Of a stretch of DNA of 22,011 bases, positions 1-22,011 are shown piece by piece (within the stretch, counting starts at the first letter, position 1; every line of letters starts with the position of its first letter). Under the pieces are notes generated by a model that did no database searches, was not told the origin of the DNA, and saw only the letters and a list, made by a program, of their open reading frames with translations. The stretch comes from a virus (lineage: Duplodnaviria; Heunggongvirae; Uroviricota; Caudoviricetes): IMG/VR virus record IMGVR_UViG_2609459830_000015. One strand, written 5' to 3'. Both the position numbers and the translations under genes were made by a program.

Positions 1-349
1 GGCGTAAGAGGCCCCGGAACGTTATCGTTCACACGGACCGTGGAGGCCAGTACTGTTCAGCAGATTATCAGGCGCAACTGAAGCGGCATAATCTGCGTGG
101 AAGTATGAGCGCAAAAGGTTGCTGCTACGATAATGCCTGCGTGGAAAGCTTCTTTCATTCGCTGAAAGTGGAATGTATCCATGGAGAACACTTTATCAGC
201 CGGGAAATAATGCGGGCAACGGTGTTTAATTATATCGAATGTGATTACAATCGGTGGCGGCGGCACAGTTGGTGTGGCGGCCTCAGTCCGGAACAATTTG
301 AAAACAAGAACCTCGCTTAGGCCTGTGTCCATATTACGTGGGTAGGATC
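1..349 (+). mobile_element. IS3-family insertion sequence, right-hand end only (element continues left of the window)
   Basis: Transposase OrfB C-terminal coding sequence runs into the window and stops at 320; 321-349 (ggcctgtgtccatattacgtgggtaggatca) reads as a terminal inverted repeat ending TGGGTAGGATCA, consistent with the 5'-TG...CA-3' termini of IS3-family elements. Exact boundary is +/- a few bp. Confidence 0.85.
3..320 (+). CDS. IS3-family transposase OrfB, C-terminal fragment (5' end outside window)
   Basis: Frame 3 is open from the window edge: ...[51 protein letters not shown]...[22 protein letters not shown]. The HTDRGxQY and CYDNAxxESFF blocks are the DDE-region signatures of IS3-family OrfB. 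Confidence 0.9.
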
Positions 350-471
350 ACGCAGGGGTCGGCCCATTTGAGCTTCAGATAGGAACGTTTGAATTCCTTT
401 CACAAAATACATCACATACTGAACGTGAACATTCCCACTTTGATCTTAAGGCCAAAAAGTATGCAGGACTA

Positions 472-2190
472 ATGATTTTTAGGGATAGCTTGAGAGTATT
501 ACCTTATGGTCGAGTAGATAATGATTTCTTCCAGATAGAAGAAAGACGTTCATGGAATGCAGGGCGATATTATTGGTCTAATAGAAGGATTTTTGGTTAT
601 ATTGGAATTACTCAATCCAGTAATAAAGAGCTGAAAGATAAGTCGGGGAGAGAGGGATTCATAAGAAACCAGGCTGCAAGAGAACTGAAAACTATTATAT
701 CTAATTTGTTAACTGAACTTGCTGATAGATTTTTTGGTTCACGTTCTGATGACCGTAAAGAGCTTTTAGAACAAGTTAAGCGTGAAAAAGAGTTAAGAAA
801 ATCTGCTCAACAACAAGCTCGAAAATCAACACAAAAAAGTTTTTCAGAAGCTTTGAAGAATCAGACACCAGTTCTTGATGCTTCCTTGGAGGCTGTTAAA
901 AGGCTGAAAACTAAGCTTGATAAAACTGATGGTTCGTTAGATTTAAACTATCTTAAAATTATAGACAGTGATCTTACAAACTTAGATGCGTTGCGCAGTG
1001 AAATTAAAACGCCTATCAAACCTCCAAAACTTGGAATGTATGAAGAGAAATATAGAGACTACAGAGATAAATTTAATGAGTTCTCTGCGTATATTCTACA
1101 AATGAAGTTAGCAATTAATAAACTTGATTCTGAATTAAATAAACTTGAGCCTTCATTGTCAGCGAAAAATCACCTTGAAAAAAATCAAGGTATTATTAAT
1201 TCTAAACTAACTAAGTTTAATAACACGATAGAGGAGAAGATACATTCTCTTTTAAAAAAATGGGCCGATGAAATAAAGGTTGATCGAAGTGATTATTATG
1301 CTAAAACTATATCAGTTGTTGATTCAATAGATAATGATTCACAAATTGAAAATGTGTTTAATTTGCTCGATAGTTTATATGTTGAGTCAGTTGATACCCT
1401 AACTTTCAAATATCAATCAATAATAAAAGGTCTCGATAGATTATTTGAAGGTATAAACTTAGATTCAGCATTCTCATTATCTGAAGAAGAACGCTCATAT
1501 TTTGAAGAAAAAGCTAAAAGTTTAAACGCGCTTGCACAGTTAGGTATTAGTGTTGAGATAATATCTCATGAACTTGAAGAAATGGATTCTATGGTAACCA
1601 GAGGACTAAACTCTCTTCCTACTTCTGTAAAAGAACACCCTGGTTTTTCATTGGCGTTAAATGCTCACAGATCGCTTACTCAACAAATACGTTTCTTATC
1701 ACCTTTGAAAATATCAGGTTATCAATCCAGGCAGAGAATAACTGGAAAAAATATCATGGATTATGTCCTGAAGTTCTTTGGGGAGCGTTTCGAACGGCAA
1801 CGAATAACTATTGAATTTAGTGAAGAGTTTAAGCAAATCGCAATAACAGATATACCATCAAGGATCTATCCTGTTTTTACTAATATTATCAACAATGCAA
1901 TGTATTGGGTCAGTCTGTCAAATAATAGGCTCATAAAGATTGGTTTTGTGAATTCTTTGGTTATCATAGCAAATTCTGGTCCGGCAATTGATACCGATGA
2001 TATCCCGCGACTATTTGAACTATTTTATAGCAAAAGAGCAAATGGACATGGGGTAGGTCTGTATCTATGTCGAGAAAACCTTGCTGTTGCACATCATAAA
2101 ATATGGTATTCAGAACCTGATGAAGGCGATAACTATTTAATAAAAGATGGCGCTAATTTTGTGATCCAGTTCAATGGAGTGGAGTTCTAA
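472..2190 (+). CDS. Histidine kinase core (coiled-coil region, HisKA-like H-box, HATPase_c); probably 5'-truncated by the IS3 insertion
   Basis: 572-aa ORF. C-terminal third shows an H-box (LGISVEIISHELEEMDSMV), N-box (VFTNIINNAMYW), G1 box (IANSGPAIDTDDIPRLFELFYS) and G2 box (GHGVGLYLCRENLAV). The N-terminal ~250 aa are K/E/L-rich, coiled-coil-like. The same frame is open upstream from 346 (immediately after the IS3 end) to the first ATG at 472, with no stop. Confidence 0.8.
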   Translation: MIFRDSLRVLPYGRVDNDFFQIEERRSWNAGRYYWSNRRIFGYIGITQSSNKELKDKSGREGFIRNQAARELKTIISNLLTELADRFFGSRSDDRKELLEQVKREKELRKSAQQQARKSTQKSFSEALKNQTPVLDASLEAVKRLKTKLDKTDGSLDLNYLKIIDSDLTNLDALRSEIKTPIKPPKLGMYEEKYRDYRDKFNEFSAYILQMKLAINKLDSELNKLEPSLSAKNHLEKNQGIINSKLTKFNNTIEEKIHSLLKKWADEIKVDRSDYYAKTISVVDSIDNDSQIENVFNLLDSLYVESVDTLTFKYQSIIKGLDRLFEGINLDSAFSLSEEERSYFEEKAKSLNALAQLGISVEIISHELEEMDSMVTRGLNSLPTSVKEHPGFSLALNAHRSLTQQIRFLSPLKISGYQSRQRITGKNIMDYVLKFFGERFERQRITIEFSEEFKQIAITDIPSRIYPVFTNIINNAMYWVSLSNNRLIKIGFVNSLVIIANSGPAIDTDDIPRLFELFYSKRANGHGVGLYLCRENLAVAHHKIWYSEPDEGDNYLIKDGANFVIQFNGVEF

Positions 2191-2191
2191 T

Positions 2192-3940
2192 ATGACAGTG
2201 GCAAATTATAATTCTCTTGTCCAGAAAACTTTCTGCGAAAATGCAATTCGTTCCGTTGTCATGATTGATGACGATTTTCTGACGTATTCTGAATCAATCA
2301 GGGCGTTGAATAACGAAGTTGATTTAGACTACAACAAAATTGACTCATCTAAACGAGCCGCTACTCTTGAGAGCTTTTTTCAATCTAAAAATATGATTTG
2401 TGATGTTGACAATGGTTCTGTTAATTTCGATGTGGATCGGATTAGAAAATCAGATCTTATTATTGTAGATTATCATCTTGATAATAATGCACCTGATAAA
2501 ACACTTAAACTATTACAAGATTTGAAAGACTCCGATCATTTAAATATGATTGTAATATATACTAGAGAGAATTTAGAAACGGTTTGGATGCAGATATCAT
2601 CGACTCTCAAAGGTGCTCTGGATATCAACAGCTTGATCATTGACTACGATAATGAAGATGTCCAAAGTTATTGGGAAGACGTTGTATTACCGAACTTAAA
2701 TGATAATGGTAATAAAGCTCTCACAAGAGATGAAACAATAGCCTATATTAAAGACAGTAAGCCTTGTAGAAGAATTAAAAGATTAATACATGATGATGCT
2801 GTGTTGGAGGATCAAAAGGATAAAAACTTCATTGCAAAAATGATTGCAGAATATGCTGTGTCTAGAAATGCAATTATTTCTAGCAACACATCTGGCAATG
2901 TCATTCGGGGTGATGAAAGCGGAGTAAAATGGATTCAATGTGGTAATATCTTTGTCTCCCTATTTCATAAGGTTCAAGATGATCATGAAAACGATGGAGA
3001 TAGAATTTGGCAAACTCTCAATGATTCTCTCATTGAATGGAAACCATCTTATTATCAGTTAATAAAATCTGAAATTCAGAATGCAATCGAAGCTGAGGCT
3101 TTATCTTTTGTAAATCATTTGGCTAACGATCATTACGGTCAAGCTGCGTGGTTAAATGAGATATTAAAATCAGACTCGCCTGATATTAGATGTAGAAATA
3201 TTGACTTTGTATTTGGTAATTTATCAGAAGAGCTTTATCAAAGACTTAAAAATAATAATACGCTGGATGAATTTATCAAAAGTGTTTTTGATAGCTATTC
3301 AAATGAATACGCTAACAGCGGAGTTGCTGCATTGCTCCAATATTGCTCTTCAAAAATGGATCTGCCATCAAATAATGATACTTATCACGAAATGTATCAT
3401 GCTTTAAATATGAATTTGTCTTCAAAGAATTTTGAAGATGGTCATATTTCTACTGGCACTATTTTCTTTGATACAGAGTCGAACAAATGGTATTTATGTG
3501 TATCTGCGGCATGTGATTTGGTTCCTACTCAGGGTAACGACCCTCACCATGTAAGATTAAGTCCGCACAGGCTCATTAAAGTTCTGGAGCTTTTTAACGC
3601 CAGTCAGAGTAAAGCATTGCCATTTGCTGAACATTCGAAATATATATATGTAATGCATAAAAATCAAAGAAAATATCTCTCTATTTTCGAAGGGGATAAA
3701 ACGCTTCCTGTTGTTGATTATATGGTGGTGTTGAATCATGGAACAACAGTTGATGGCGAAGAAAAAAATATTATTTCTGCCGTGTTTTTAAGTAATATGG
3801 ATGGCAACGTGCAAAATGTTCCTGTCCGACTCAAACTTAAATCTCAACTGAGAACTGGTTATGCAGAAAGATATCAGGCTATAGCGTCTCAGTATAGCTC
3901 AAGGATTGGTGTGGATTATGTATCAATGATGCTACCATAA
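2192..3940 (+). CDS. Receiver (REC)-like domain protein with a large C-terminal domain of unknown function (putative phosphorylation-controlled effector)
   Basis: N-terminus resembles a response-regulator receiver: acidic beta1 (VVMIDDD), candidate phospho-acceptor Asp at the end of beta3 (DLIIVDYHLDNN), Thr after beta4 (MIVIYT), then a Lys. The remaining ~430 aa have no motif I recognise. Start taken as ATG 2192 (GGAG at 2181-2184, 7 nt upstream; 1 nt after the kinase stop); an in-frame ATG at 2174 is the alternative. Confidence 0.7.
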   Translation: MTVANYNSLVQKTFCENAIRSVVMIDDDFLTYSESIRALNNEVDLDYNKIDSSKRAATLESFFQSKNMICDVDNGSVNFDVDRIRKSDLIIVDYHLDNNAPDKTLKLLQDLKDSDHLNMIVIYTRENLETVWMQISSTLKGALDINSLIIDYDNEDVQSYWEDVVLPNLNDNGNKALTRDETIAYIKDSKPCRRIKRLIHDDAVLEDQKDKNFIAKMIAEYAVSRNAIISSNTSGNVIRGDESGVKWIQCGNIFVSLFHKVQDDHENDGDRIWQTLNDSLIEWKPSYYQLIKSEIQNAIEAEALSFVNHLANDHYGQAAWLNEILKSDSPDIRCRNIDFVFGNLSEELYQRLKNNNTLDEFIKSVFDSYSNEYANSGVAALLQYCSSKMDLPSNNDTYHEMYHALNMNLSSKNFEDGHISTGTIFFDTESNKWYLCVSAACDLVPTQGNDPHHVRLSPHRLIKVLELFNASQSKALPFAEHSKYIYVMHKNQRKYLSIFEGDKTLPVVDYMVVLNHGTTVDGEEKNIISAVFLSNMDGNVQNVPVRLKLKSQLRTGYAERYQAIASQYSSRIGVDYVSMMLP

Positions 3941-4011
3941 TTATTATATTTTAGGCGTGGTGATTTTTTTTCGCCATGCCTATTTTATATTTATCATCAC
4001 AATGATGTTGT

Positions 4012-4428
4012 TTATTTTTGTTTAAGTCTTCTAAGCTTCATGCATTCTAATGAGAATAATAATAGAGTTGTGCTGTATATAAAGCCAGAGTTAGTTAATA
4101 ACTTTAAATTTAATGCTTCAGGATTTTCACTGAGAAAGTGAAAGGCATAAACTAAGTATACAGCTAAAGTAGCCGTTCCAATTGTTGGTCCAATATCGCC
4201 TTGATCATGAGGTTCAAGGTTTACATTGAACTTGAAGATTAGCCATTCAAATCCCCAAGTAAAAAAAACAACTAATATCATGGCTGCGAATAATTTCGCG
4301 ATGTTATCTGCTGATGGATTCATCAGAACAGATTGTTTCTGAAAAAATTCACAAAGTGAGAGTCCGAAAAAAATAAAAAAAAGTGGTCTGGAACTAAATT
4401 TTTCAAAAACTTTGAATAGGGTTTCCAT
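4012..4428 (-). CDS. Small integral membrane protein (about 4 predicted TM helices), unknown function
   Basis: 138-aa ORF with hydrophobic stretches (PLFFIFFGLSLCEFF; LFAAMILVVFFTWGFEWLIF; IGTATLAVYLVYAFHFL; GFIYSTTLLLFSL). AT-rich like the kinase/REC cargo. Starts 38 bp downstream of the integrase stop on the same strand. Confidence 0.55.
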   Translation of the reverse strand: METLFKVFEKFSSRPLFFIFFGLSLCEFFQKQSVLMNPSADNIAKLFAAMILVVFFTWGFEWLIFKFNVNLEPHDQGDIGPTIGTATLAVYLVYAFHFLSENPEALNLKLLTNSGFIYSTTLLLFSLECMKLRRLKQK

Positions 4429-4466
4429 TTTCTTTACCTTCAGGATTATATTAGCTATTCTGATAC

Positions 4467-5738
4467 TTAGGCTACCAGAGCATTTGATCTTTGAGCTTGA
4501 ACGTAATCACTCCACCATTGCATCAAACTCTGTCGCTCTATCAGATATTCTGCACGATTGTATGCTGCGATAATTTCATCTTTTTTCGAGTGGGCAAGCG
4601 CTGCCTCAAGAACTTCAGCTCTGAATTTACCAGACTCCTCTGCCGCTGTTCGTGCAATAGAACGCATACCGTGAGCTACAAGCTCGCCTCCGAACCCCAT
4701 TCGGATGATAGCTGCGTTGGCTGTTTGTTCATGCATATGATTAAGAGGCGCTTTTATGCTGGGGAAAACCCATTCTCTATGCCCACTTATTGATTTCATT
4801 AATTCAAGGATGCGCAAAGCTTCTTTACTCAAAGGAACTTTGTGAAGCTTTTTCATTTTCATGAAATCAGCAGGAATGTTCCAAATGCTGTTGGTTGTAT
4901 CAATATCAGACCACCTTGCGCGAACGGCTTCACCCGGACGAACCCATGTCAACAATTGCCATTCAATTAGCATACGTGTTTCCAACCGGATTGACGCATT
5001 CGTCAAAGATTCCATAAACCTTGGCAATTCGCTTGGGGGAAGGGCAGGCATATTTTGCTTTTTTGGTTTACTGAATCTTTGACCAAGGTTGTCAGCCGGG
5101 TTGAACTCAATAAGTTCTTCAGTAGCTGCCCACCGGAAGATTTCATTCAGACGTGAAATGATACGGCGTAGAGTTTCCAATACGCCTCGTTGCTCAATAG
5201 GATCAAGGTGTTGTTTTAAGAGCTTAGGTCGGATCTCATTGATAGGGACATTACCCAGACCGGGAAAGACATTTCTCTCTAAGCTGCGCCAGATGTCTGC
5301 TGCATGGTCTTGTGAGATACCTGATGTCTTTACCTTCTCATCTAACCATTTCCGCGCTACGGCTTGGAGAGTGTGCTCAGTAGCACTCTTTAATGCCTTC
5401 GCCTTATCGTTGTTATGGATTTGGGGATCAACACCATTTGCCAGAAAGGAGAGATATTCATCACGTAAGGCTCTGGCTCTTGCAAGGGTAAGGTGAGGAT
5501 ATGTCCCAAGGCTCATTTTGGTTCTTTTCTTGCTCACTGGTACTGCATACCTGAAATACCAATTTTTCTTGCCTCCTTTCGCCAAAGGAGCGATTCGTAG
5601 AATCAGACCATCACCGTCAAACAAGTTGATTTCTTTATCGGCTGGCTTGGTGCTTTTGATTTCAGTGTCAGTGAGCTTCTTAGCGATTTTTGCCATTTTG
5701 GGACCCTCGGTTTTTGGACCCTTCTTAGTGGGTCCCAT
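4467..5738 (-). CDS. int: P4-type tyrosine integrase (IntA/CP4-57-like family)
   Basis: 423-aa ORF. N-terminal arm-binding region typical of P4-family integrases (KLTDTEIKSTKPADKEINLFDGDGLILRI...KNWYFRY) and a C-terminal catalytic region (...AHGMRSIARTAAEESG...EAALAHSKKDEIIAAYNRAEY) with the R...HxxR...Y pattern. The true start is probably the internal Met (MAKIAKKLTD, about 5696). Confidence 0.9.
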   Translation of the reverse strand: MGPTKKGPKTEGPKMAKIAKKLTDTEIKSTKPADKEINLFDGDGLILRIAPLAKGGKKNWYFRYAVPVSKKRTKMSLGTYPHLTLARARALRDEYLSFLANGVDPQIHNNDKAKALKSATEHTLQAVARKWLDEKVKTSGISQDHAADIWRSLERNVFPGLGNVPINEIRPKLLKQHLDPIEQRGVLETLRRIISRLNEIFRWAATEELIEFNPADNLGQRFSKPKKQNMPALPPSELPRFMESLTNASIRLETRMLIEWQLLTWVRPGEAVRARWSDIDTTNSIWNIPADFMKMKKLHKVPLSKEALRILELMKSISGHREWVFPSIKAPLNHMHEQTANAAIIRMGFGGELVAHGMRSIARTAAEESGKFRAEVLEAALAHSKKDEIIAAYNRAEYLIERQSLMQWWSDYVQAQRSNALVA

Positions 5739-5861: not shown

Positions 5862-5897
5862 TGGTGGGCTGGCGGGAGTTGAACCCGTATCCGAAAA
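5862..5897 (-). other. att-site core: degenerate copy of the tmRNA (ssrA) 3' end, not a complete gene
   Basis: Minus strand reads ...CGGGTTCAACTCCCGCCAGC-CCACCA, matching the 3' terminus of E. coli tmRNA as I recall it (GCGGGTTCAACTCCCGCCAGCTCCACCA) with one base missing and two substitutions just upstream; similarity decays after about 36 nt and no ssrA 5' sequence is present at 5898-6230. Same orientation as, and 124 bp upstream of, the P4-type integrase. Confidence 0.6.
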
Positions 5898-6154
5898 ATT
5901 CTTAACCAATTGAATATTAATGATTTTTCTAATTTAAAATACCTCACGTGCATTTTACGTGCATATTGTAGTACCTCTAACGTCCTGATTCTGTCCAACA
6001 TTTTGAAGTGTTTAGGCGCCACTGGGGCGGTGATTAGCGCTGTTTTGTGCTGTTCATAGCACTTCAAGACTATTCAATTCAGAGCAATCGTTGAAGAATT
6101 ACCCGTAAGGTAATATCATACTATTTAGGTAACTGCGGTTATCACCATCAAGGG

Positions 6155-6188
6155 CCACTGATGACGCTGTTATCATCAGTGGCTTTTT
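6155..6188 (+). terminator. Rho-independent terminator-like hairpin (plus strand)
   Basis: Perfect 10-bp stem CCACTGATGA / TCATCAGTGG (6155-6164 / 6173-6182) with an 8-nt loop, followed by CTTTTTGT. No T-run on the opposite strand, so it is unidirectional. Confidence 0.6.
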
Positions 6189-6230
6189 GTACCTTCACTG
6201 CACAGCCAGTGAAGTGTTGAGGAGACTAGC

Positions 6231-6572
6231 ATGAGAACAGTAGCGAGAAGATCGATACAGACGATTGAGCGTCGGACTCAACTCGTCAGTTCTTTTGTTG
6301 ACTCAAACACAGCAAACGAGTTCTTCGTGAGAAGACTGAGTGATCGTGTCTCCCCGGCACGTCAGCTGTTTATTGTGACATTGAACAATGAGGTTCGTGA
6401 CGGTGACGTGATCCCGTTCGCTGAGATCGCCATGAACAAAGAAAAATTGCGCTATGTTGTGAAGCCAGCAGATCAGTATCCTCAGTATGTAAGCAGTAAT
6501 CTGCTGAAGAAAATTGAAGCGGCAATTGCTCTATACATGCAGAAGAACTACAGGGAAATTAACTACCATTAA
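6231..6572 (+). CDS. Hypothetical protein (113 aa), first gene of a cargo cassette between att and the prophage integrase
   Basis: ORF preceded by GAGGAG (6219-6224) 6 nt before the ATG; no recognisable motif. An 8-bp-stem hairpin (CTTCACTG...CAGTGAAG, 6193-6214) sits in the leader. Confidence 0.6.
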   Translation: MRTVARRSIQTIERRTQLVSSFVDSNTANEFFVRRLSDRVSPARQLFIVTLNNEVRDGDVIPFAEIAMNKEKLRYVVKPADQYPQYVSSNLLKKIEAAIALYMQKNYREINYH

Positions 6573-6583
6573 AAGGTTGCTGA

Positions 6584-7351
6584 ATGGCTCCTGCGTTAAT
6601 ACCTTCATATAACAAGGACTTGAACATTACGCCATTTGGCGAAAAACGTCTTATTGAGTCATTCTATTTTTTCACTGCCGAGGCTGGCTTACTGAGGGCT
6701 GATGAGTACATTGTCAGTTCTGGTGAGTTTCAGTACTACTTGGATGTGTATCAACTGGGATGTTCCACCGACGACTTTTTTTTAGACTATGGCAGTGACC
6801 TTCTTGATTCGAAGGTTCCAATGCAGGATCTGGTCAATACCCTCTTGGGTCTTGATATGGTAGACGATAACAAAACGATAAGAATAGGTCGTATACAGTT
6901 CAACGACTTTAATTTTATCGAAGAGAACGGTCAGATGATGACCGGAAAGCAAGTGAAAAGCGCTGTTATCGCACAGGATTTCCAATCAGCAGGTTTGGCG
7001 CGTGAGATCTATAAAATGCTTGCGCGAAAGCATGAGTTTCTCATCTGCGATAACATTCAAAGTATTGCCGGTGGTGCTCTTTGGGCTAGTAGCATCATTC
7101 GAATTGCCGAGGTACGGATCTACAATTCACGCACGAAGAAATTTATGGACATACTTGGTCCAGGTGCGCGTGGCGTTTCAGGTACTTTGCCATGGAGTGC
7201 GAATGATCTGTCTGTAGATGAGATTGTTCGCTGGGGTCGTGCGTATGATGATGAAAACTGTTGTCGTCACATTGTACATGTTATCTGTAAGGACCGACTC
7301 ATTGACGATCAATTTCATGATTATGTTTCGATAGGTGGCGCGACAGAATAA
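6584..7351 (+). CDS. Hypothetical protein (255 aa), second gene of the att-int cargo cassette
   Basis: ORF starts 11 bp after the upstream gene's stop and is followed by a terminator; no recognisable catalytic motif. Confidence 0.65.
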   Translation: MAPALIPSYNKDLNITPFGEKRLIESFYFFTAEAGLLRADEYIVSSGEFQYYLDVYQLGCSTDDFFLDYGSDLLDSKVPMQDLVNTLLGLDMVDDNKTIRIGRIQFNDFNFIEENGQMMTGKQVKSAVIAQDFQSAGLAREIYKMLARKHEFLICDNIQSIAGGALWASSIIRIAEVRIYNSRTKKFMDILGPGARGVSGTLPWSANDLSVDEIVRWGRAYDDENCCRHIVHVICKDRLIDDQFHDYVSIGGATE

Positions 7352-7363
7352 CCATCAAAAAGA

Positions 7364-7387
7364 CCCGGCATTTGCCGGGTTTTTTCT
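7364..7387. terminator. Bidirectional rho-independent terminator between convergent genes
   Basis: Hairpin CCCGGC-ATTT-GCCGGG (7364-7379) flanked by an A-run upstream and T-run downstream (aaaaaGACCCGGCATTTGCCGGGtttttt), so it works for the plus-strand cassette and the minus-strand integrase. Confidence 0.6.
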
Positions 7388-7392
7388 TCAAA

Positions 7393-15335: not shown

Positions 15336-15748
15336 AGGTACCCGAACAGAAGCAGGCTTAAAGGTGCCTGTTCAGGTTGGCAACCAACTGACCCAACTCC
15401 TCATGTGTACTAGGGAAGTAGTACGTTTTTATGGGGAAGAGGGTAAGGGGGGTAAGGGGGGATTGGGTGTTGGGGCAGGAATAGGGTCTTTTCCAACAGG
15501 AGAGATCCATTGGTTAAGTAGATCACTGTCTTAAGGGCGCAATTTAAAAAAACGCCCGTATCAGCAAGGTAGTACAAAGCGCTCAGGCGCTGAGAAACGA
15601 AAAGGGTTCTTCCTGGAAGAGTGATTTTTCAGAGGAGCTGAATCAGAAGGGAGGCTGGCAGCCTTTGGGGAGGCCACCAGCCATGTGAGGGGGAATCCAT
15701 GAAAACCACATCACAAAATTATTATCTCATCAGCACGGGAGCTGCACA

Positions 15749-17407
15749 ATGGAGCTGACGATCACGCCGAATTTTGCACAGGAACGAGCGTTAAACATGT
15801 TGCGCCGTGACTGGAAGGCAAACGACACCTTCATGGTTTACTCGCCAACAGGTAGCGGTAAAACGGGTCTGGCAGCCTTCATAGTTGCTGGTTTTGTCAG
15901 CCGTGGTATGCGTGTTCTGTTCTGTGTTCCGTACACCATCCTGATTGGTCAGACGGCTAATCGGTTCGTGCAGTATGGTTTACCTGGAGATGAAATCGGT
16001 TATATCTGGGCGGATCACCCGAACTACGATCCGGACCGGAAAATTCAGATTGCCAGCGCTGACACGCTTATTCGTCGTGTTTTTCCTGAAAATATCGATC
16101 TGCTGATTATCGACGAAGCGCACCTGCGTAAAAAACGCATCCTGAAGGATATCGAACGTCTGCGCGGCAAAGGCGTAAAGGTGATTGGCCTGTCGGGTAC
16201 TCCGTTTTCTCCGTTCCTGGGCAAATACTATGACCGACTGATTAAGCCGACCACCATCGGCGAGTTAATCCAGCGTGGCGATCTGAGTAAATACGAATTT
16301 TACGCGCCAACTAAGCCGGATCTGAAAGGTGTTAAAACCACATCTTCGCTTGAGTACGGCCGCGATTACAACGAAACACAGCTGGCTGAAATCATGTGCG
16401 GCTCTACGCTGGTGGGCGACATCGTACAGAACTGGCTGGAGAATGGTCGGGATTTACCTACCATCGCTTTCTGCGTCAACGTAGCTCACGCCAATTATCT
16501 GACAATCCAGTTTAACCTGGCGGGTGTTAACGCTGAGGTAATGACCGCCGACACTCCGGTAGATGAGCGCCAGACCATCATTCACCGCTTTGAAACCGGT
16601 GCAACGAAAATCATCGTTAGTGTGGGCGTTCTGGTGGCCGGCTTTGATAGTGACGTTCGTTGCATCATCTACGCCAGGCCAACAAAAAGCGAAATTCGCT
16701 GGTTGCAGGCTCTCGGGCGTGGGCTGCGCACCGCACCGGGTAAAGAGTCCTGCCTTATCTTCGATCACAGCGGCACCGTGCACCGTTTGGGTTATCCGGA
16801 TTCAATCGAGTACGACGAGCTTCCCGGTAAGTCTGACGGCATGGAGGAAAGCGCGCGCCGGGCAGTTGAGGAACGGGCCGAAAAACTGCCACATGAATGC
16901 CCTCAATGCCACTACATGAAGCCAGCAGGCGTCTATGTTTGCCCGAAATGTGGACACAAGCCGCTGCGAGGTGAAGACGTTGATACTGACACTAGCCGCA
17001 AACTTAATAAGCTGGGTAAAAATCAGCATCAGTCGACGAAGGCAGAGAAACAGTCCTGGTGGAGTCAGATCAAATTTTATCAGCGCCAGCGTGCTTCGCT
17101 GGGGCGTCCAGTCAGTGACGGATGGTGTGCTCACACTTTCCGGGAAAAGTTCGGTGAGTGGCCTGACGGACTGAGTAACTTTCCGATGGAAATTACCCCT
17201 GAGGTAAATAACTACATCAGACACAAACTGATCCGGTTTGCCAAAGGCCACCAGCGGGTTCAGAAGGTCACTGAAAACGCACAAACAACGATTGATTTAT
17301 CTCAGGAACGTGATGAACGACGTGAGATACCGGCAGGCAGTGAGGCCTGGCGCATCATGCAGGCAAAGCACCAACTCCAGAAAAATATAAACAGTCTGAG
17401 TCAGTAA
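15749..17407 (+). CDS. SF2 DEAD/DEAH-box helicase with C-terminal zinc-ribbon (phage replication helicase)
   Basis: Walker A (YSPTGSGKTG), DEAH box (LLIIDEAH), motif III (LSGTPF), motif VI (QALGRGLRT), and a C-terminal CPQC...CPKCG zinc-ribbon. Confidence 0.85.
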   Translation: MELTITPNFAQERALNMLRRDWKANDTFMVYSPTGSGKTGLAAFIVAGFVSRGMRVLFCVPYTILIGQTANRFVQYGLPGDEIGYIWADHPNYDPDRKIQIASADTLIRRVFPENIDLLIIDEAHLRKKRILKDIERLRGKGVKVIGLSGTPFSPFLGKYYDRLIKPTTIGELIQRGDLSKYEFYAPTKPDLKGVKTTSSLEYGRDYNETQLAEIMCGSTLVGDIVQNWLENGRDLPTIAFCVNVAHANYLTIQFNLAGVNAEVMTADTPVDERQTIIHRFETGATKIIVSVGVLVAGFDSDVRCIIYARPTKSEIRWLQALGRGLRTAPGKESCLIFDHSGTVHRLGYPDSIEYDELPGKSDGMEESARRAVEERAEKLPHECPQCHYMKPAGVYVCPKCGHKPLRGEDVDTDTSRKLNKLGKNQHQSTKAEKQSWWSQIKFYQRQRASLGRPVSDGWCAHTFREKFGEWPDGLSNFPMEITPEVNNYIRHKLIRFAKGHQRVQKVTENAQTTIDLSQERDERREIPAGSEAWRIMQAKHQLQKNINSLSQ

Positions 17408-17408
17408 G

Positions 17409-18377
17409 ATGAAAACAGCAGATGCAGCGAAAGGCCGCTGGCCTGAAATATTAGAGCACTTCGGTCTGCCGCCGATAACCGGAAAAAATCACTTCAAGGG
17501 TGAATGCCCGGTATGCGGTGCACGTGGCAAGTTCCGAATTGACGACCGCGACGGTGCAGGAACGTGGATCTGTGTATGTGGTAGTGGCGATGGTATGAAA
17601 CTTGTCACCCTGACACAGGCGAAGCCATTTAACGAGATTTGTACCGAAATAGACCGCCTGATCGGTAATGATTACCAACGGGTTAAAATCCCGGTAACCA
17701 GCAGCGCCACCAGCTTACGCAAACGGGTATTGAGCAAGTTTTCAAAACTGGAGGCACTGCGTGGTACATCCGGCGCAGCGTATCTTAATTCTCGTGGAAT
17801 ATTCAGTCTTCCTGCTGAGGCGATCCGGTTCAATGCCAGGCAGAGACACAACGGGAGTGTGTTCCAGTCTCTTTATTCACTTGCTACGGACGATAAAGGG
17901 GAGTTGTGCTATCTGCACCAGACTCTGCTTGATGGTGATAAAAAAGCAGATATCGGTAGCAGTGCAAAGCGCCTCAAATCCCTGCAGGAAGATAACTATT
18001 TGGATCACGCTCGTTCTGTAGCTATCCGCATGTTTCCTGTCGCCAGCACTCTGGGTATCGCCGAAGGCATCGAAACAGCGCTGTCAGCGCACCAGATTTA
18101 TAACGTGAACACCTGGGCAACCATTAACAGCGGCTTTATGAAAAAGTTTCGCGTACCAGCTGGTGTTCTGCACCTGATTATTTTTGCCGACCGTGACGAG
18201 AACAGCGCCACCGGGCTGGCTGCGGCTTGCGAATGTGCTCATGCCAATCTGATGGCAAAGAATGACCTGCAGCGCGTGAGCGTGTACTGGCCGGATCACG
18301 ATGATTTCAACAATATGCTCATGAACGGTGATCAGGTTCGAGAGCTGGTTTTCCATAAGAAAAAGGCGGTTGCGTAA
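17409..18377 (+). CDS. DNA primase (zinc-binding N-terminus plus Toprim domain)
   Basis: CPVCGARGKFRIDDRDGAGTWICVCG zinc-binding motif; Toprim signatures (GIAEGIETALS with the conserved Glu; LIIFADRDENSATG with DxD). Starts 1 nt after the helicase stop. Confidence 0.75.
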   Translation: MKTADAAKGRWPEILEHFGLPPITGKNHFKGECPVCGARGKFRIDDRDGAGTWICVCGSGDGMKLVTLTQAKPFNEICTEIDRLIGNDYQRVKIPVTSSATSLRKRVLSKFSKLEALRGTSGAAYLNSRGIFSLPAEAIRFNARQRHNGSVFQSLYSLATDDKGELCYLHQTLLDGDKKADIGSSAKRLKSLQEDNYLDHARSVAIRMFPVASTLGIAEGIETALSAHQIYNVNTWATINSGFMKKFRVPAGVLHLIIFADRDENSATGLAAACECAHANLMAKNDLQRVSVYWPDHDDFNNMLMNGDQVRELVFHKKKAVA

Positions 18378-19234
18378 TGCGTACTGATAATAACGAACAT
18401 AAAGCACTATTCACCATCCCGACGGCAGCGTACAGCTCCGCCCTCGCAAACATCAAGCCCCTGCCAGAGCAACGGAGAATCACCGGGCATAAGCAGACTG
18501 ATGCTTATCTTTGGGTGCTGGAGGTTATCCGTCTGAACGAACCCGCACATCTGGATGCTGCTGAGGCTGCGCTGGTGAAAATTAAAATTTCCCCAAAAGA
18601 GGCTCAGGAACGCTATTCGCGTTATCTGCTGGCGAATGGTTACGAACCTTTCCAGGTTGCGTTCGGCATCATCGGCATGGATAACCCTGCGCAGGTTATC
18701 AGGAACGCCCGGGAGAACATCAAAAAAGCGGCATCAGTCAGGGCTACGTTTGGTAGCTATGAAGCAGCGCTCGAAGATGTGGAAGCAGAGCGGGTCATCA
18801 GGTCTTCCCAGAAATTTATCAACGATCATCTCTGGGGCTGGACTGCGGCAGAGAAAAAAGCCGGAAGCATTGGCGGCAGCCGCATGAACGAAATTGATGA
18901 ACAGCGTCGGGCATTTGTTGATGGATATCGCGATGTGCTGCCTGAGCCTTATACGCTGTCTGATGTTGTTCGCGAGTTCGTTTACTGGGACTGGCTCTAC
19001 AGTGTTCGCCACACTGCAACTAAAGAACAGGGCGATGAGTTTGGTTACTCTGAGCATCACGAATCGGTATATGACCGGGAGCGCTACCTTGAAAAATTGC
19101 TGGCAACCATCAAACCGGTGACACGCGCTGAAGCCGTGGAGGTGTGCCGCTGGTTTCTGGCAAGTGGTAAGGGTGAATGCATGGAAGACGACGGTGCAAC
19201 GGTCATTCTCAATCTGGTTGGTGAGTGCGAATAA
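18377..19234 (+). CDS. Hypothetical phage protein (285 aa)
   Basis: ORF coupled to the primase (TAATG overlap at 18375-18379) and to the downstream Q-like gene; no recognisable motif. Confidence 0.55.
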   Translation: MRTDNNEHKALFTIPTAAYSSALANIKPLPEQRRITGHKQTDAYLWVLEVIRLNEPAHLDAAEAALVKIKISPKEAQERYSRYLLANGYEPFQVAFGIIGMDNPAQVIRNARENIKKAASVRATFGSYEAALEDVEAERVIRSSQKFINDHLWGWTAAEKKAGSIGGSRMNEIDEQRRAFVDGYRDVLPEPYTLSDVVREFVYWDWLYSVRHTATKEQGDEFGYSEHHESVYDRERYLEKLLATIKPVTRAEAVEVCRWFLASGKGECMEDDGATVILNLVGECE

Positions 19235-19626
19235 TGCGTGATATTCAGATGGTTCTCGAACGCTGGGGGGCATGGGCGGCAAGTGGTAACGCCGGGGTGG
19301 ACTATTCTCCGATAGCTGCTGGATTTAAAGGCCTTTTACCATCCACCGCTAAACCTCGCCCGGCCTGCAGCGATGATGACGGCCTTATCATCGAAAACTG
19401 CCTTACGCGCCTGAAGAAGAAAAAACCGGACGAGTATTCGCTGCTGGTAGCTCATTATCTGCTGCGCATATCAAAAAGGCAGATTGCCAGAACAAGAAAG
19501 AAGAGCGAAAAGGCAATACGAATTGAGATGCAGATTGCTGAAGGATTTATTGACGGATGTCTGTCGATGCTGGGTGTAAGGCTGGAGATGGACGACTGGC
19601 TGCCCAAAAAAGTAAAAAATGATTAG
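19234..19626 (+). CDS. Q-like late-gene antitermination protein (phage 82/21 Q type)
   Basis: MRDIQMVLERWGAWAASGNAGVDYSPIAAGFKGLL... resembles the N-terminus of phage-82-type Q antiterminators as I recall them. A strong intrinsic terminator lies about 60 bp downstream. Start taken as ATG 19234 (TAATG overlap) rather than the track's GTG 19225. Confidence 0.6.
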   Translation: MRDIQMVLERWGAWAASGNAGVDYSPIAAGFKGLLPSTAKPRPACSDDDGLIIENCLTRLKKKKPDEYSLLVAHYLLRISKRQIARTRKKSEKAIRIEMQIAEGFIDGCLSMLGVRLEMDDWLPKKVKND

Positions 19627-19684
19627 CGCGGTCCGCAAAAAGTATGTCAGTATGTTAAGAGTGGTTACTACGCCACACAGCTTA

Positions 19685-19708
19685 AACCCGCCGCGAGCGG
19701 GTTTTTTT
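19685..19708 (+). terminator. Rho-independent terminator downstream of Q (tR'-like)
   Basis: aaaCCCGC-CGCGA-GCGGGttttttt: GC stem 19687-19701, T-run 19702-19708. Confidence 0.7.
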
Positions 19709-19823
19709 ATGGCTGAAATCGGTCCAGTACAGTAAACGCGCTGGCGGCGGTGAATACCGGTCTTTCAGCTTGCTGGCTTTTTCGACAAGAGTTATTGGTG
19801 TGTCACGTTAACCGGAAAAAGAC

Positions 19824-20021
19824 ATGCTGAAACAGCAGGATATGACCGAAACCGCCAGAGTGGTGTTTAATGAATTAAGCGTCACCGAACCGGCGACCGT
19901 CGGGGAGATTGCGCAGAATACTTACCTTTCACGCGAACGCTGCCAGTTAATACTGACCCAGCTGGTTATGGCGGGTCTGGCAGACTATCAGTTCGGTTGT
20001 TACAGACGCCTTCAGTCCTGA
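19824..20021 (+). CDS. Hypothetical small protein (65 aa)
   Basis: ORF downstream of the tR'-like terminator; its stop codon sits in the stem of a terminator-like hairpin. No motif. Confidence 0.4.
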   Translation: MLKQQDMTETARVVFNELSVTEPATVGEIAQNTYLSRERCQLILTQLVMAGLADYQFGCYRRLQS

Positions 20022-20032
20022 AGGCTTTTTTA
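20008..20032 (+). terminator. Rho-independent terminator-like hairpin
   Basis: GCCTTCA-GTCC-TGAAGGC (20008-20025) followed by TTTTTTAT. Confidence 0.5.
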
Positions 20033-20485
20033 TTTGTGGTAAATGGGCGGCTGGTGGGTGTGGTGGTTGTTGCTTTCCCGTTGCTGAAAAAGAAAGCATC
20101 AGGCGATTAGCAGGGTATCAGTTACCCGTTGAAATTTTTAAATACCTCACAATTCAGGCGGTTGACTGTTGTCTGGTTTGCGGGGAGTTTGTTAAAAGAA
20201 ACTGGCATGGTGAATCCCCCTGTGCGGAGGGGCGATCAGCAACCAGGTATATGGGATAATCGCGGATTCAGGTGCTGATACTGAATTCACCGGGAGGCAC
20301 CCGGCACCATGCTTTGCCACAAAAGTGTTGTTTCTGTTTTTCTCAAACTATCATCGTTATCCCTTTATTTCCGGCTGCGCATGGCGTGGCCTTTTTTTTA
20401 CGACCAGCCACTGGCAGATGGCCATCCTGTAATTTGATTCCGGTTCCGGCTTTTTAACTCTGTTCCTGTACACGGGAGAAATTCG

Positions 20486-20774
20486 ATGTCGATTAAACAT
20501 TATGATGTTGTCAGGGCGGCGTCGCCGTCAGACCTTGCGGAAAAGCTGACACATAAACTGAAAGAGGGCTGGCAGCCGTTTGGTAGTCCGGTGGCCATAA
20601 CCCCTTATACCCTGATGCAGGCGATTGCAGCAGAAGGTGATGTGGTGGTCAGTGGTGCAACTGAGCCGGATTGGTACTACGTCATCGTACTGGCCGGGCA
20701 GTCCAATGCAATGGCTTACGGTGAAGGGCTTCCGCTTCCGGATTCATACGATGCTCCGGATCCGCGCATTAAAC
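20486..20774 (+). pseudogene. NanS-p-like esterase gene (DUF1737-like N-terminus plus start of SGNH domain), 3'-truncated by IS66-family insertion
   Basis: MSIKHYDVVRAASPSDLAEKLTHKLKEGWQPFGSPV... then ...YYVIVLAGQSNAMAYGEGLPLP, where GQSN is the block-I motif of sialate-O-acetylesterase-type SGNH hydrolases. Protein-like sequence stops where the IS terminus GTAAGCG begins (about 20775); the rest of the track ORF is read-through into the IS. Confidence 0.6.
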
Positions 20775-22011
20775 GTAAGCGTGCAGCAAGAACCGTATTG
20801 ACGGGGATGTGTTATTCAGTCGGCAGTGCTACGCGCCAGGGGAGCAGTTCGCCGACCCGGTTTATCGGCCAGTCGGCTATGACGTCAAGGACATAGCGGA
20901 GGTAGCTTTCTGGCTCCACTCCGTTCAGTTTGCACGTCCCGATCAGGCTGTACAGCAGCGCTCCCCGCTCTCCTCCATGATCCGAACCGAAGAACAGGTA
21001 GTTTTTGCGGCCCAGACTGACCATCCGCAACGCATTTTCAGCGATGTTATTGTCAGCCTCAGCCCAGCCATCGTTCGCATAGTACGTCAGCGCCGGCCAC
21101 TGGTTCAGGGCGTATGCGAACGCTTTCGCCAGTTCTGAGTGTCGCGACAGGGTTTTCATCTTTTCACGCAGCCAGCTTTCCAGGGATTTCAGCAGCGGTT
21201 TCGTTTTCAACTGACGTTCGGCAAGGCGCTGCTCCGCCGTCATTCCCCTTATCTCTGCCTCGATGGCGTACAGTTCGCCGATCCGTTTCAGCGCTTCCTC
21301 CGTCAGGGCTGACGGGGTGCGAACGTGCACATCGTGGATTTTACGGCGGGCGTGAGCCCAACAGGCGGCTTCCGTTATCCGGCCATCCCGGTACAGCTCG
21401 TTGAACCCGGCGTATGCATCCGCCTGCAGTACACCACTGAACCCCGCAAGATGGGTCTGCGGATGGATGCCTTTTCTGTCCGGGCTGTAAGCGAACCACA
21501 CCGCCGGCGCCAGCGTTGACCCGGCGTTACGGTCGTCACGAACGTAGGTCCATAACCGCCCGGTCTTCGTTTTCTTATTGCCTGGCAACAGCACCGGGAC
21601 AGGCGTGTCATCAGCATGGAGCTTACCGTCAGTCAGCACATAGTCCTGAAGCGCTTCTTCCAGCGGTGACAGTAGCCGGCAGCATGCATCCACCCAGCCC
21701 GACAGCAGTGAACGACTCAGCTCCACGCCCTGGCGGCCGTACATTTCAGACTGGCGGTACAGCGGGGTGTGCTCTGCATACTTTGAGATCAGCACGCGGG
21801 CCAGCAGCCCCGGTCCTGCGATACCCCGCTCGATGGGCCGTGAAGGCGCGGGGGCCTGCACGATGGCATCGCACTGAGTACAGGCATGCTTTTCACGTAC
21901 AGTCCGGATAACCCGGAAGGCGCTGCGCATCAGCTCCAGCTGTTCGGCGGCATCCTCACCCAGATAGCTCAGCGAGCCTCCACATTCCGGGCAGCATGAC
22001 GCTGCCGGCAG
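20775..22011 (-). mobile_element. IS66-family insertion sequence, one end only (element continues right of the window)
   Basis: TnpC-type transposase on the minus strand running to the window edge; terminus beginning GTAAGCG at 20775, 37 bp beyond the transposase stop. The GTAAGCG terminus is from memory of IS66-family ends. Confidence 0.75.
20812..22011 (-). CDS. IS66-family transposase TnpC (N-terminus outside window)
   Basis: The minus-strand frame is open from the track's Met (21930) to the window edge: ...[48 protein letters not shown]..., giving the CxxC...CxxC zinc-finger typical of IS66 TnpC upstream of the DDE region. Confidence 0.88.

What the first reader, a model, noticed from the sequence alone, without database searches (positions are those of the whole stretch)
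20486..20820. NanS-p-like esterase gene is cut by an IS66-family element: the prophage late region is disrupted
The esterase ORF has the DUF1737-like N-terminus and the GQSN block but then runs straight into IS sequence that begins GTAAGCG at about 20775, with TnpC on the opposite strand. With the IS3-truncated kinase and the frameshifted early gene, this points to a decaying, probably defective prophage/island complex that IS elements are remodelling.
Basis: partly seen in the sequence, partly recalled or inferred. Interest (0 to 1): 0.45.

Follow-up and report, generated by a model that had tools for sequence, protein, structure and literature searches.

The report
Prophage esterase gene cut by ISEc22
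A prophage gene for a sialic-acid esterase (NanS-p type) is cut after its 96th codon by a copy of the common E. coli insertion sequence ISEc22, an ordinary and already described kind of gene knock-out in a resident prophage.

Summary
ORF 20486-20896 starts as a NanS-p-type esterase (DUF1737 domain, GQSN serine motif). Similarity to intact 616/617-aa homologues stops at 20774, after codon 96 plus one base. From 20775 the sequence is the terminal repeat (GTAAGCGTGCAG...) of ISEc22, an IS66-family element, 99.7% identical to annotated copies. Its tnpC lies on the minus strand and runs off the window end. Two draft genomes carry the same Q-to-esterase module uninterrupted, so this is a truncation and not a natural gene end.

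The window holds only 1237 of the IS's 2454 bp, so the far end and the expected 8-bp duplication (CATTAAAC) cannot be seen. One other sequence has this exact junction, a 3.6-kb metagenome contig. There the far IS end abuts a CP4-type island gene, not the rest of the esterase. So the IS may now mark a rearrangement or deletion, unless that contig is a repeat-induced chimera.

Related prophages carry independent ISEc22 insertions nearby, at esterase nt 1344 and in ydfR. IS elements in nanS-p are already published. "Defective prophage" is plausible but not shown: integrase, repressor, replication genes and Q read intact. Low interest; already known kind.

The parts
20486..20774 (+). 5' fragment of a NanS-p-type esterase gene: codons 1-96 plus the first base of codon 97, out of 616-617 codons
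   Evidence: Collinear with intact genes in L016 and L024 (99.6%, no gaps), L004 and L001. Similarity ends at 20774.
20495..20635 (+). DUF1737 domain (residues 4-50), complete
   Evidence: Pfam PF08410, E = 3.9e-16, profile positions 2-53 of 53. Reported as the capsid-decorating domain of phi24B gp84.
20696..20707 (+). GQSN motif of the SASA/SGNH esterase domain (Ser codon 20702-20704). Only 38 residues of the roughly 320-residue catalytic domain remain.
   Evidence: Read from the sequence. The intact homologue aligns to NanS 3pt5 over its residues 59-379.
20767..20774 (.). Target site CATTAAAC: the 8 bp expected to be duplicated at the far IS end if this is still a simple insertion
   Evidence: Inference from the 8-bp duplications around other ISEc22 copies: CCCTGTTT in L002 and ATTTAAGA in L003. 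Not verifiable in the window.
20775..22011 (-). ISEc22 (IS66 family), the end next to tnpC: 1237 of 2454 bp, inverted relative to the esterase. Terminal repeat GTAAGCGTGCAGCAAG... starts at 20775.
   Evidence: 99.7% identical to annotated ISEc22 copies. Same first base as in L002, L003, L024 and L026. IS length 2454 bp measured in L002, L003 and L026.
20812..22011 (-). tnpC (DDE transposase), the C-terminal 399 of 512 codons; runs off the window
   Evidence: Pfam DDE_Tnp_IS66 E = 5.6e-107, IS66 C-terminal element, zf-IS66. Full length of 512 aa seen in L002 and L026.
20775..20896 (+). IS-encoded read-through tail of the chimeric 136-aa ORF (the remaining two bases of codon 97, 39 further codons, stop)
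   Evidence: The same chimeric ORF, one residue different, is P0001 on contig L026.
20176..20348 (+). STnc100-family small RNA upstream of the esterase, followed by a terminator-like hairpin at 20373-20391
   Evidence: Rfam RF02076, 108 bits against a gathering score of 47, E = 4e-23. Terminator scan.
19225..19626 (+). Q antiterminator gene, reads intact; defines the start of the late unit the esterase belongs to
   Evidence: Pfam Phage_antitermQ, E = 3.1e-52, full profile. The same protein precedes intact esterase and lysis genes in L016.

Best explanation
A copy of ISEc22 (IS66 family, 2454 bp, tnpA-tnpB-tnpC) transposed into codon 97 of the prophage's NanS-p-type sialate O-acetylesterase gene. 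It sits in the opposite orientation to the gene.

Shown:
- The junction lies exactly at the first base of the IS terminal repeat.
- The remaining ORF encodes the whole DUF1737 domain, 38 residues of the catalytic domain including the GQSN serine, and a 40-residue IS-derived tail.

Inferred:
- The product cannot be an esterase. It lacks residues 97-379 of the catalytic domain, which by knowledge of SGNH hydrolases hold the later catalytic blocks and the histidine. It also lacks the C-terminal DUF6645/lectin-like domain.
- The esterase is the first gene after Q, its promoter-proximal terminators and an STnc100 RNA. Q-dependent late transcription would therefore have to cross 2.45 kb of antisense IS to reach any lysis and structural genes.
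- Whether those genes still follow the IS cannot be seen.
For: - Break point: similarity to intact genes ends at 20774 and IS similarity starts at 20775.
- The uninterrupted allele of the very same Q / 65-aa ORF / STnc100 / esterase module exists in L016 and L024 (99.6% over 1775 bp, no gaps). It reads ATTAAAC|AGCTGG and encodes 617 aa.
- The IS end is identical to ends of ISEc22 copies that have clean 8-bp duplications.
- TnpC domains are present.
- Intact homologue architecture is DUF1737 + SASA + DUF6645. It aligns to NanS 3pt5 over residues 59-379 and to NanS-p 6yp6 over 421-613.
- An independent sequence, L026, has the same junction with only 5 mismatches in 1952 bp. So the junction is not peculiar to this assembly.
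- Q and the upstream RNA and terminators.
Against: Nothing contradicts the insertion itself. The limits are these:
- The far IS end, tnpA/tnpB and the target duplication are outside the window.
- Loss of esterase activity and polarity on late genes are inferred, not measured.
- No terminator-like site was found on the + strand inside the visible IS part, so read-through by Q-modified polymerase is possible.
Confidence: 0.95

Rival explanations
1. Simple, still intact insertion. The far IS end, about 1.2 kb beyond the window, is followed by a second CATTAAAC, the rest of the esterase gene, and the holin, lysozyme and structural genes, as in strain Z1323HEC0393.
For: - ISEc22 copies in L002 and L003 are simple insertions with 8-bp duplications.
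- In Z1323HEC0393 the orthologous prophage has ISEc22 in the same gene with the 3' part and the lysis genes right after it.
Against: - The only sequence that has this junction and spans the IS (L026) does not continue into the esterase.
- The predicted right junction is absent from 5426 complete E. coli genomes.
Confidence: 0.45
2. The IS now marks a rearrangement. After insertion, recombination with another ISEc22 copy (or IS-mediated deletion or inversion) joined the esterase 5' fragment to a CP4-type island. The rest of the esterase and the late genes are deleted or moved, leaving an early-region-only prophage remnant.
For: - L026 is identical to the window over the 611 bp upstream of position 20671, has the same junction base, and differs by 5 mismatches in 1952 bp.
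- Its far IS end reads GCTTAC|TGCGAAACGGTTGTCATGAGG. That is the 5' end of an antirestriction gene next to a DUF932 gene, with no duplication of CATTAAAC.
Against: - L026 is a short-read metagenome contig that passes through a 2.45-kb multicopy repeat. Pairing of its two flanks may be an assembly artefact.
- It is not the window's own genome.
- In E110019 the orthologous prophage is flanked by ssrA and ypjA, with no such island next to it.
- That right junction was found in no other collection.
Confidence: 0.45
3. The window's allele derives from the Z1323HEC0393-type insertion (ISEc22 at esterase nt 1344) by deletion of nt 290-1344 next to the IS, not from a separate transposition.
For: Same gene, same IS, same orientation, in a prophage whose early region is 99.9% identical.
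Against: - The two IS copies differ at 8 of 1237 aligned positions, against 2 for L026 and 4 for an unrelated copy.
- The segment between Q and the esterase (19822-20186 and the esterase 5' flank) is a different module in Z1323HEC0393.
- The Z1323 prophage carries an IS3 insertion and a 4.4-kb deletion that the window lacks.
Confidence: 0.04
4. Assembly chimera: the esterase fragment and the IS are not adjacent in the real genome.
For: The window begins inside an IS3 copy and ends inside ISEc22, as a short-read contig bounded by repeats would.
Against: - The join is exactly at the terminal base of the IS, as transposition produces. A chimera would join at shared sequence.
- The same join occurs in an independent assembly.
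Confidence: 0.02
5. Natural short gene: a stand-alone DUF1737 protein that ends here by design.
For: Most DUF1737 proteins in the databases are single-domain.
Against: - The ORF continues past DUF1737 into 38 residues of the esterase domain, nearly identical to 616-aa proteins. Its last 40 residues are encoded by the IS terminal repeat region.
- The uninterrupted allele exists.
Confidence: 0.005

Closest known systems
nanS-p::ISEc22 in the ssrA-region prophage of E. coli Z1323HEC0393 (NZ_CP148357.1, locus L003)
   Same: Same IS, same orientation, same target gene, in a prophage with a 99.9% identical early region.
   Different: There the insertion is at nt 1344 of the gene, with a verified 8-bp duplication ATTTAAGA and the 3' gene part and lysis genes following. 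Here it is at nt 289 and the far side is unseen. The IS copies differ at 8 of 1237 positions.
IS elements within or next to nanS-p in the Q-S region of Stx2a phages (Pascal et al. 2023, PMC10462455)
   Same: IS insertion into the esterase gene between Q and the holin of lambdoid E. coli prophages. One published case is an IS66-family element, ISEc8 in phage F451.
   Different: The published cases are mostly IS3-family (IS629/IS1203) and lie in Stx2a phages. This prophage has no stx genes in the window and the IS is ISEc22.
NanS-p esterases of Stx and lambdoid prophages (933W 933Wp42, phi24B gp84; structures 6yp6, NanS 3pt5)
   Same: The first 96 residues are nearly identical to those of 616-aa relatives of this family: DUF1737, then the GQSN start of the SASA domain.
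   Different: Only 16% of the protein remains. Residues 97-379 of the catalytic domain and the C-terminal DUF6645 domain are missing, so it is a pseudogene and not a functional member.
ISEc22 / IS66 family
   Same: GTAAGCG terminal repeat and TnpC with zf-IS66, DDE_Tnp_IS66 and IS66_C domains; 99.7% nucleotide identity to annotated copies.
   Different: Nothing differs in the visible part. tnpA, tnpB, the other repeat and the duplication lie outside the window.

Membership tests
ISEc22 (IS66 family insertion sequence) | Terminal inverted repeat beginning GTAAGCG | tested here: met
   GTAAGCGTGCAGCAAG at 20775, identical to the ends of copies in L002, L003, L024 and L026.
ISEc22 (IS66 family insertion sequence) | DDE transposase TnpC with IS66-type domains | tested here: met
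   PF03050 E = 5.6e-107, PF13817, PF13005 on 399 visible residues. The N-terminal 113 residues are outside the window.
ISEc22 (IS66 family insertion sequence) | Near-identity to reference copies of the named IS | tested here: met
   99.7% over 1237 bp to copies that RefSeq annotates as ISEc22.
ISEc22 (IS66 family insertion sequence) | Accessory genes tnpA and tnpB upstream of tnpC | not testable with these tools
   Outside the window. Present in L002, L003 and the same-junction contig L026.
ISEc22 (IS66 family insertion sequence) | 8-bp target-site duplication | not testable with these tools
   The far end is outside the window. Duplications are seen in L002 (CCCTGTTT) and L003 (ATTTAAGA). None is seen in L026, which has CATTAAAC against TGCGAAAC.
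NanS-p prophage sialate O-acetylesterase | N-terminal DUF1737 domain | tested here: met
   PF08410, E = 3.9e-16, residues 4-50.
NanS-p prophage sialate O-acetylesterase | Complete SASA/SGNH catalytic domain | tested here: not met
   Only residues 59-96 of a domain spanning 59-379 remain. Pfam SASA is not detected in the 136-aa ORF.
NanS-p prophage sialate O-acetylesterase | C-terminal DUF6645 / lectin-like domain | tested here: not met
   Absent from the ORF. Present at residues 467-577 of intact homologues.
NanS-p prophage sialate O-acetylesterase | Position between antiterminator Q and the lysis cassette | tested here: inconclusive
   Q lies 860 bp upstream. The lysis genes would lie beyond the IS and cannot be seen. 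They follow the intact gene in L016.
NanS-p prophage sialate O-acetylesterase | 9-O-acetyl sialate esterase activity | not testable with these tools
   Needs an enzyme assay. Loss is inferred from the missing domain.
STnc100 small RNA (RF02076) | Score above Rfam gathering threshold over the full model | tested here: met
   108.1 bits against 47, model positions 1-206 of 206, window 20176-20348.

The most novel reading that the evidence does not exclude
The head of the late operon of this prophage lineage has been hit by ISEc22 three separate times, always in the same orientation: esterase nt 289 here, esterase nt 1344 in Z1323HEC0393, and ydfR just after the holin in L024. This could reflect selection for insertions that block Q-dependent lysis while keeping the early region and cargo genes, or a local ISEc22 target preference. 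A second reading is that the truncated ORF, which keeps the entire capsid-binding DUF1737 domain, still acts as a stand-alone decoration-like protein. Three same-orientation events have a 1 in 4 chance by orientation alone, and no functional data exist.
Probability: 0.07. Interest if true: 0.35.

Novelty: already known. Interest (0 to 1): 0.1.

Why it matters
It matters little beyond annotation.

- The ORF should be labelled a pseudogene (nanS-p::ISEc22), not a DUF1737 protein.
- This prophage copy cannot add to the strain's ability to use 9-O-acetylated sialic acids.
- The prophage's late functions are at least interrupted and possibly lost.
- For assemblies, the contig starts in IS3 and ends in ISEc22. 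What follows the esterase cannot be learned from short reads.
- The junction could serve as a lineage marker. It is absent from 5426 complete E. coli genomes and present in one metagenome contig.

Tried and rejected
1. **Search for the source genome or any contig with the junction.** The 23-mer GCGCATTAAACGTAAGCGTGCAG is absent from genome contigs, viral contigs and metagenome contigs. No complete E. coli genome holds the junction. The exact chimeric ORF is not on record.

2. **Look-ups by neighbouring proteins.**
   - The 65-aa ORF is too widespread: 14113 blocks, none the source.
   - The Q look-up gave the uninterrupted allele (L016, L024) but not the source.

3. **Junctions beyond the IS.** The predicted right junction of a simple insertion and the right junction of L026 are both absent from complete E. 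coli genomes. The L026 right junction is also absent from genome contigs and metagenome contigs.

4. **A 96-aa "partial" DUF1737 protein cluster (P0012, 681 members).** It looked like widespread breakage at the same codon.
   - The contigs simply end at nt 288-290 of intact paralogous genes. Base 290 is A as in the intact gene, not G as in the IS.
   - Paralogues differ at nt 288 and 291.
   - These are assembly forks between paralogues, so this was rejected as evidence of an IS hot spot.

5. **A CP4-type island next to the orthologous prophage,** which would have explained L026 by a simple adjacent deletion. In E110019 the prophage lies between ssrA and ypjA with no such island.

6. **tRNA scan of the window:** none found.

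Full report
**Observation.**
- The + strand ORF 20486-20896 (136 aa) starts with a complete DUF1737 domain (residues 4-50, E = 3.9e-16).
- It continues into ...YYVIVLAGQSNAMAYGEGLPLPDSYDAPDPRIK.
- Megablast of 20300-20900 against 5426 complete E. coli genomes gives thousands of hits annotated "SASA family carbohydrate esterase". All of them end at query base 475, which is window 20774.
- The stretch 20775-22011 matches copies annotated "IS66-like element ISEc22 family transposase" at 99.7% over its full length.
- On the minus strand, 20812 to beyond 22011 encodes 399 residues with the zf-IS66, DDE_Tnp_IS66 (E = 5.6e-107) and IS66 C-terminal domains.

**The break is a truncation.**
- Intact homologues in O26:H11 11368 (L001) and E110019 (L004) are 616 aa. 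Their architecture is DUF1737, SASA and DUF6645.
- Residues 59-379 align to E. coli NanS (PDB 3pt5, E = 1e-121). Residues 421-613 align to the NanS-p C-terminal domain (6yp6).
- The protein alignment is identical, apart from one to three allelic differences, up to K96. The intact proteins then continue QLARRSTVTPGG while the window reads RKRAARTVLTGM.
- At the DNA level, intact genes read CGCATTAAAC|AGCTGGCGCGCC and the window reads CGCATTAAAC|GTAAGCGTGCAG.
- The best control is the uninterrupted allele of the same module. A look-up with the window's Q protein returned two draft genomes, L016 (GCA_900449145.1) and L024 (GCA_000268205.1). They are collinear with window 19000-20774 at 99.6% without gaps. 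They have the 65-aa ORF and the esterase start at the same offsets, and an intact 617-aa esterase followed by holin, ydfR, lysozyme and Rz genes.

**The IS end is authentic.**
- Two complete ISEc22 copies were read at both ends. L002 runs 2501-4954 with flanking CCCTGTTT on both sides. L003 runs 19150-21603 with ATTTAAGA on both sides.
- Both copies are 2454 bp, begin GTAAGCGTGCAGCAAG at the tnpC side and end ...GACGACGCTTAC at the tnpA side.
- The window's IS starts with the same base at 20775. A full-length copy would end near 23228, about 1.2 kb past the window.
- A join exactly at the terminal base of an IS is what transposition produces. A misassembly would not produce it.

**Context.**
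- Window 5862-19821 is 99.9% identical to a lambdoid prophage of EPEC E110019. There it lies between ssrA and ypjA, carries espM2, espW and nleG-type cargo, and has an intact esterase.
- The window lacks the IS3 insertion that E110019 and Z1323HEC0393 have at the point matching window 9088-9090. Its Q gene reads intact, whereas E110019's is frameshifted.
- Between Q (19225-19626) and the esterase lie three features:
  - a terminator-like hairpin at 19684-19704;
  - a widespread 65-aa ORF (19824-20021) with its own terminator-like hairpin;
  - an STnc100-family RNA (20176-20348, 108 bits), followed by a third hairpin.
- The esterase is thus the first long gene of the Q-dependent unit, and the IS sits about 1.1 kb downstream of Q. 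That Q-modified polymerase must cross the IS to reach late genes is an inference from the lambdoid layout.
- No terminator-like site was found on the + strand in the visible IS part.

**What lies beyond the IS.**
- The window cannot tell, and its source was not found.
- A protein search with the chimeric ORF found one near-identical 136-aa protein, P0001, with one substitution. It lies on a 3580-bp ENA metagenome contig, L026.
- L026 bases 1-1952 differ from window 20060-22011 at 5 positions with no gaps. The 611 bp upstream of 20671 are identical. Both most likely descend from one insertion event.
- L026 spans the whole IS (716-3169, with tnpA, tnpB and tnpC called). Its far end reads GCTTAC|TGCGAAACGGTTGTCATGAGG.
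- That sequence is the first codons of an antirestriction gene next to a DUF932 gene of a CP4-type island: 96.6% to many E. coli, with an uninterrupted version in L035.
- There is no CATTAAAC duplication and no esterase 3' part. If L026 is assembled correctly, the IS is now a joint between unrelated regions, and the late genes are deleted or moved.
- L026 is a short-read contig passing through a multicopy 2.45-kb repeat, so its two flanks may be wrongly paired.
- I rate simple insertion and rearrangement about equally likely for the window's genome.

**Independent hits nearby.**
- Z1323HEC0393 has ISEc22 in the same gene and orientation at nt 1344, with a clean duplication and the lysis genes following.
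- L024 has an ISEc22-like copy (98.7%) in the same orientation, about 40 nt into ydfR just after the holin.
- The Z1323 copy differs from the window's at 8 of 1237 positions, and its Q-to-esterase spacer is a different module. These are separate events, not derivatives of one another.
- Three events are too few to claim a hot spot or selection.

**Comparison with the literature.**
[quoted passage not shown] They are mostly IS3-family, with one IS66-family case, ISEc8 (PMC10462455).
- DUF1737 was recently reported as the capsid-decorating domain of phi24B gp84, cleaved off after about residue 57. Most DUF1737 proteins are single-domain (bioRxiv 10.64898/2026.04.10.717836).
- The truncated ORF keeps that whole domain, including the Tyr in ITPYTL. 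A residual structural role cannot be excluded but is speculative.
- STnc100 is a known prophage RNA related to PasD and often linked to esterase genes (bioRxiv 10.64898/2026.05.13.724894).

- The early gene at 9260-9828 (minus strand) is split into two ORFs. It corresponds to a CDS annotated "frameshifted" in the 99.9% identical E110019 prophage.
- The HATPase/HEF_HK ORF 472-2190 is annotated as a complete 572-aa CDS in other strains that share the same IS3 neighbour. However, its frame is open from the IS3 end (TGATCC...-type terminus ending at 351) to the ATG at 472. Truncation by IS3 is therefore plausible.
- The prophage's integrase, repressor, helicase, primase and Q read intact. "Defective" is likely but not shown.

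**Verdict.** This is a real, precisely located and ordinary IS knock-out of a prophage accessory gene, of a kind already published. Interest is low. The only open point is whether the IS is still a simple insertion or marks loss of the late region.

Noticed in passing
window 20176-20348 (+): Full-length match to the prophage small RNA family STnc100 (RF02076, 108 bits) directly upstream of the esterase gene, followed by a terminator-like hairpin at 20373-20391. Recent work links STnc100 and PasD RNAs to esterase genes.
   Followed up: partly
window 19684-19704, 20008-20025, 20373-20391 (+): Three terminator-like hairpins with T-runs lie between Q and the esterase start. The first is only about 60 nt after the Q stop and may end a short PR'-type leader RNA. 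The count (4) is not above the shuffle expectation (3.4).
   Followed up: no
window 1-351 and 20775-22011: The window starts inside an IS3-family copy (end at 351, ...GGTAGGATCA) and ends inside ISEc22. It looks like a short-read contig bounded by repeats.
   Followed up: partly
window 352-2190 (+): The HATPase_c/HEF_HK ORF (ATG at 472, 572 aa) has an open frame all the way up to the IS3 end, so it may be 5'-truncated by IS3. The same IS3 junction is conserved in O103:H2 PV16-126 and a pigeon isolate, where RefSeq calls the CDS complete. It is paired with a Response_reg_2 protein (2174-3940) and a P4-type integrase (4467-5738).
   Followed up: partly
window 9088-9090: Empty site of an IS3-family insertion that is present in the otherwise 99.9% identical prophages of E110019 and Z1323HEC0393. 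In Z1323HEC0393 the IS3 is also next to a 4.4-kb deletion.
   Followed up: partly
L024 9511-11847 and L003 19150-21603: Two further ISEc22-type insertions in related prophages, both in the same orientation as in the window: about 40 nt into ydfR after the holin (L024), and at esterase nt 1344 with duplication ATTTAAGA (L003).
   Followed up: partly
L026 3170-3580: In the only other sequence with this junction, the far IS end interrupts an antirestriction gene a few codons after its start, next to a DUF932 gene of a CP4-type island. There is no target duplication matching the esterase side.
   Followed up: partly
L027-L032 (contig ends): Many draft-genome contigs end at nt 288-290 of paralogous esterase genes (96-aa partial proteins, cluster of 681 members). 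This coincides with the IS site but is explained by paralogue differences at nt 288 and 291.
   Followed up: yes
window 19824-20021 (+): A 65-aa ORF with a weak winged-helix (TrmB-like, E = 0.002) match is found immediately after Q in a very large number of lambdoid and Stx prophages (14113 index blocks), usually followed by a DNA methyltransferase gene that is absent here.
   Followed up: no
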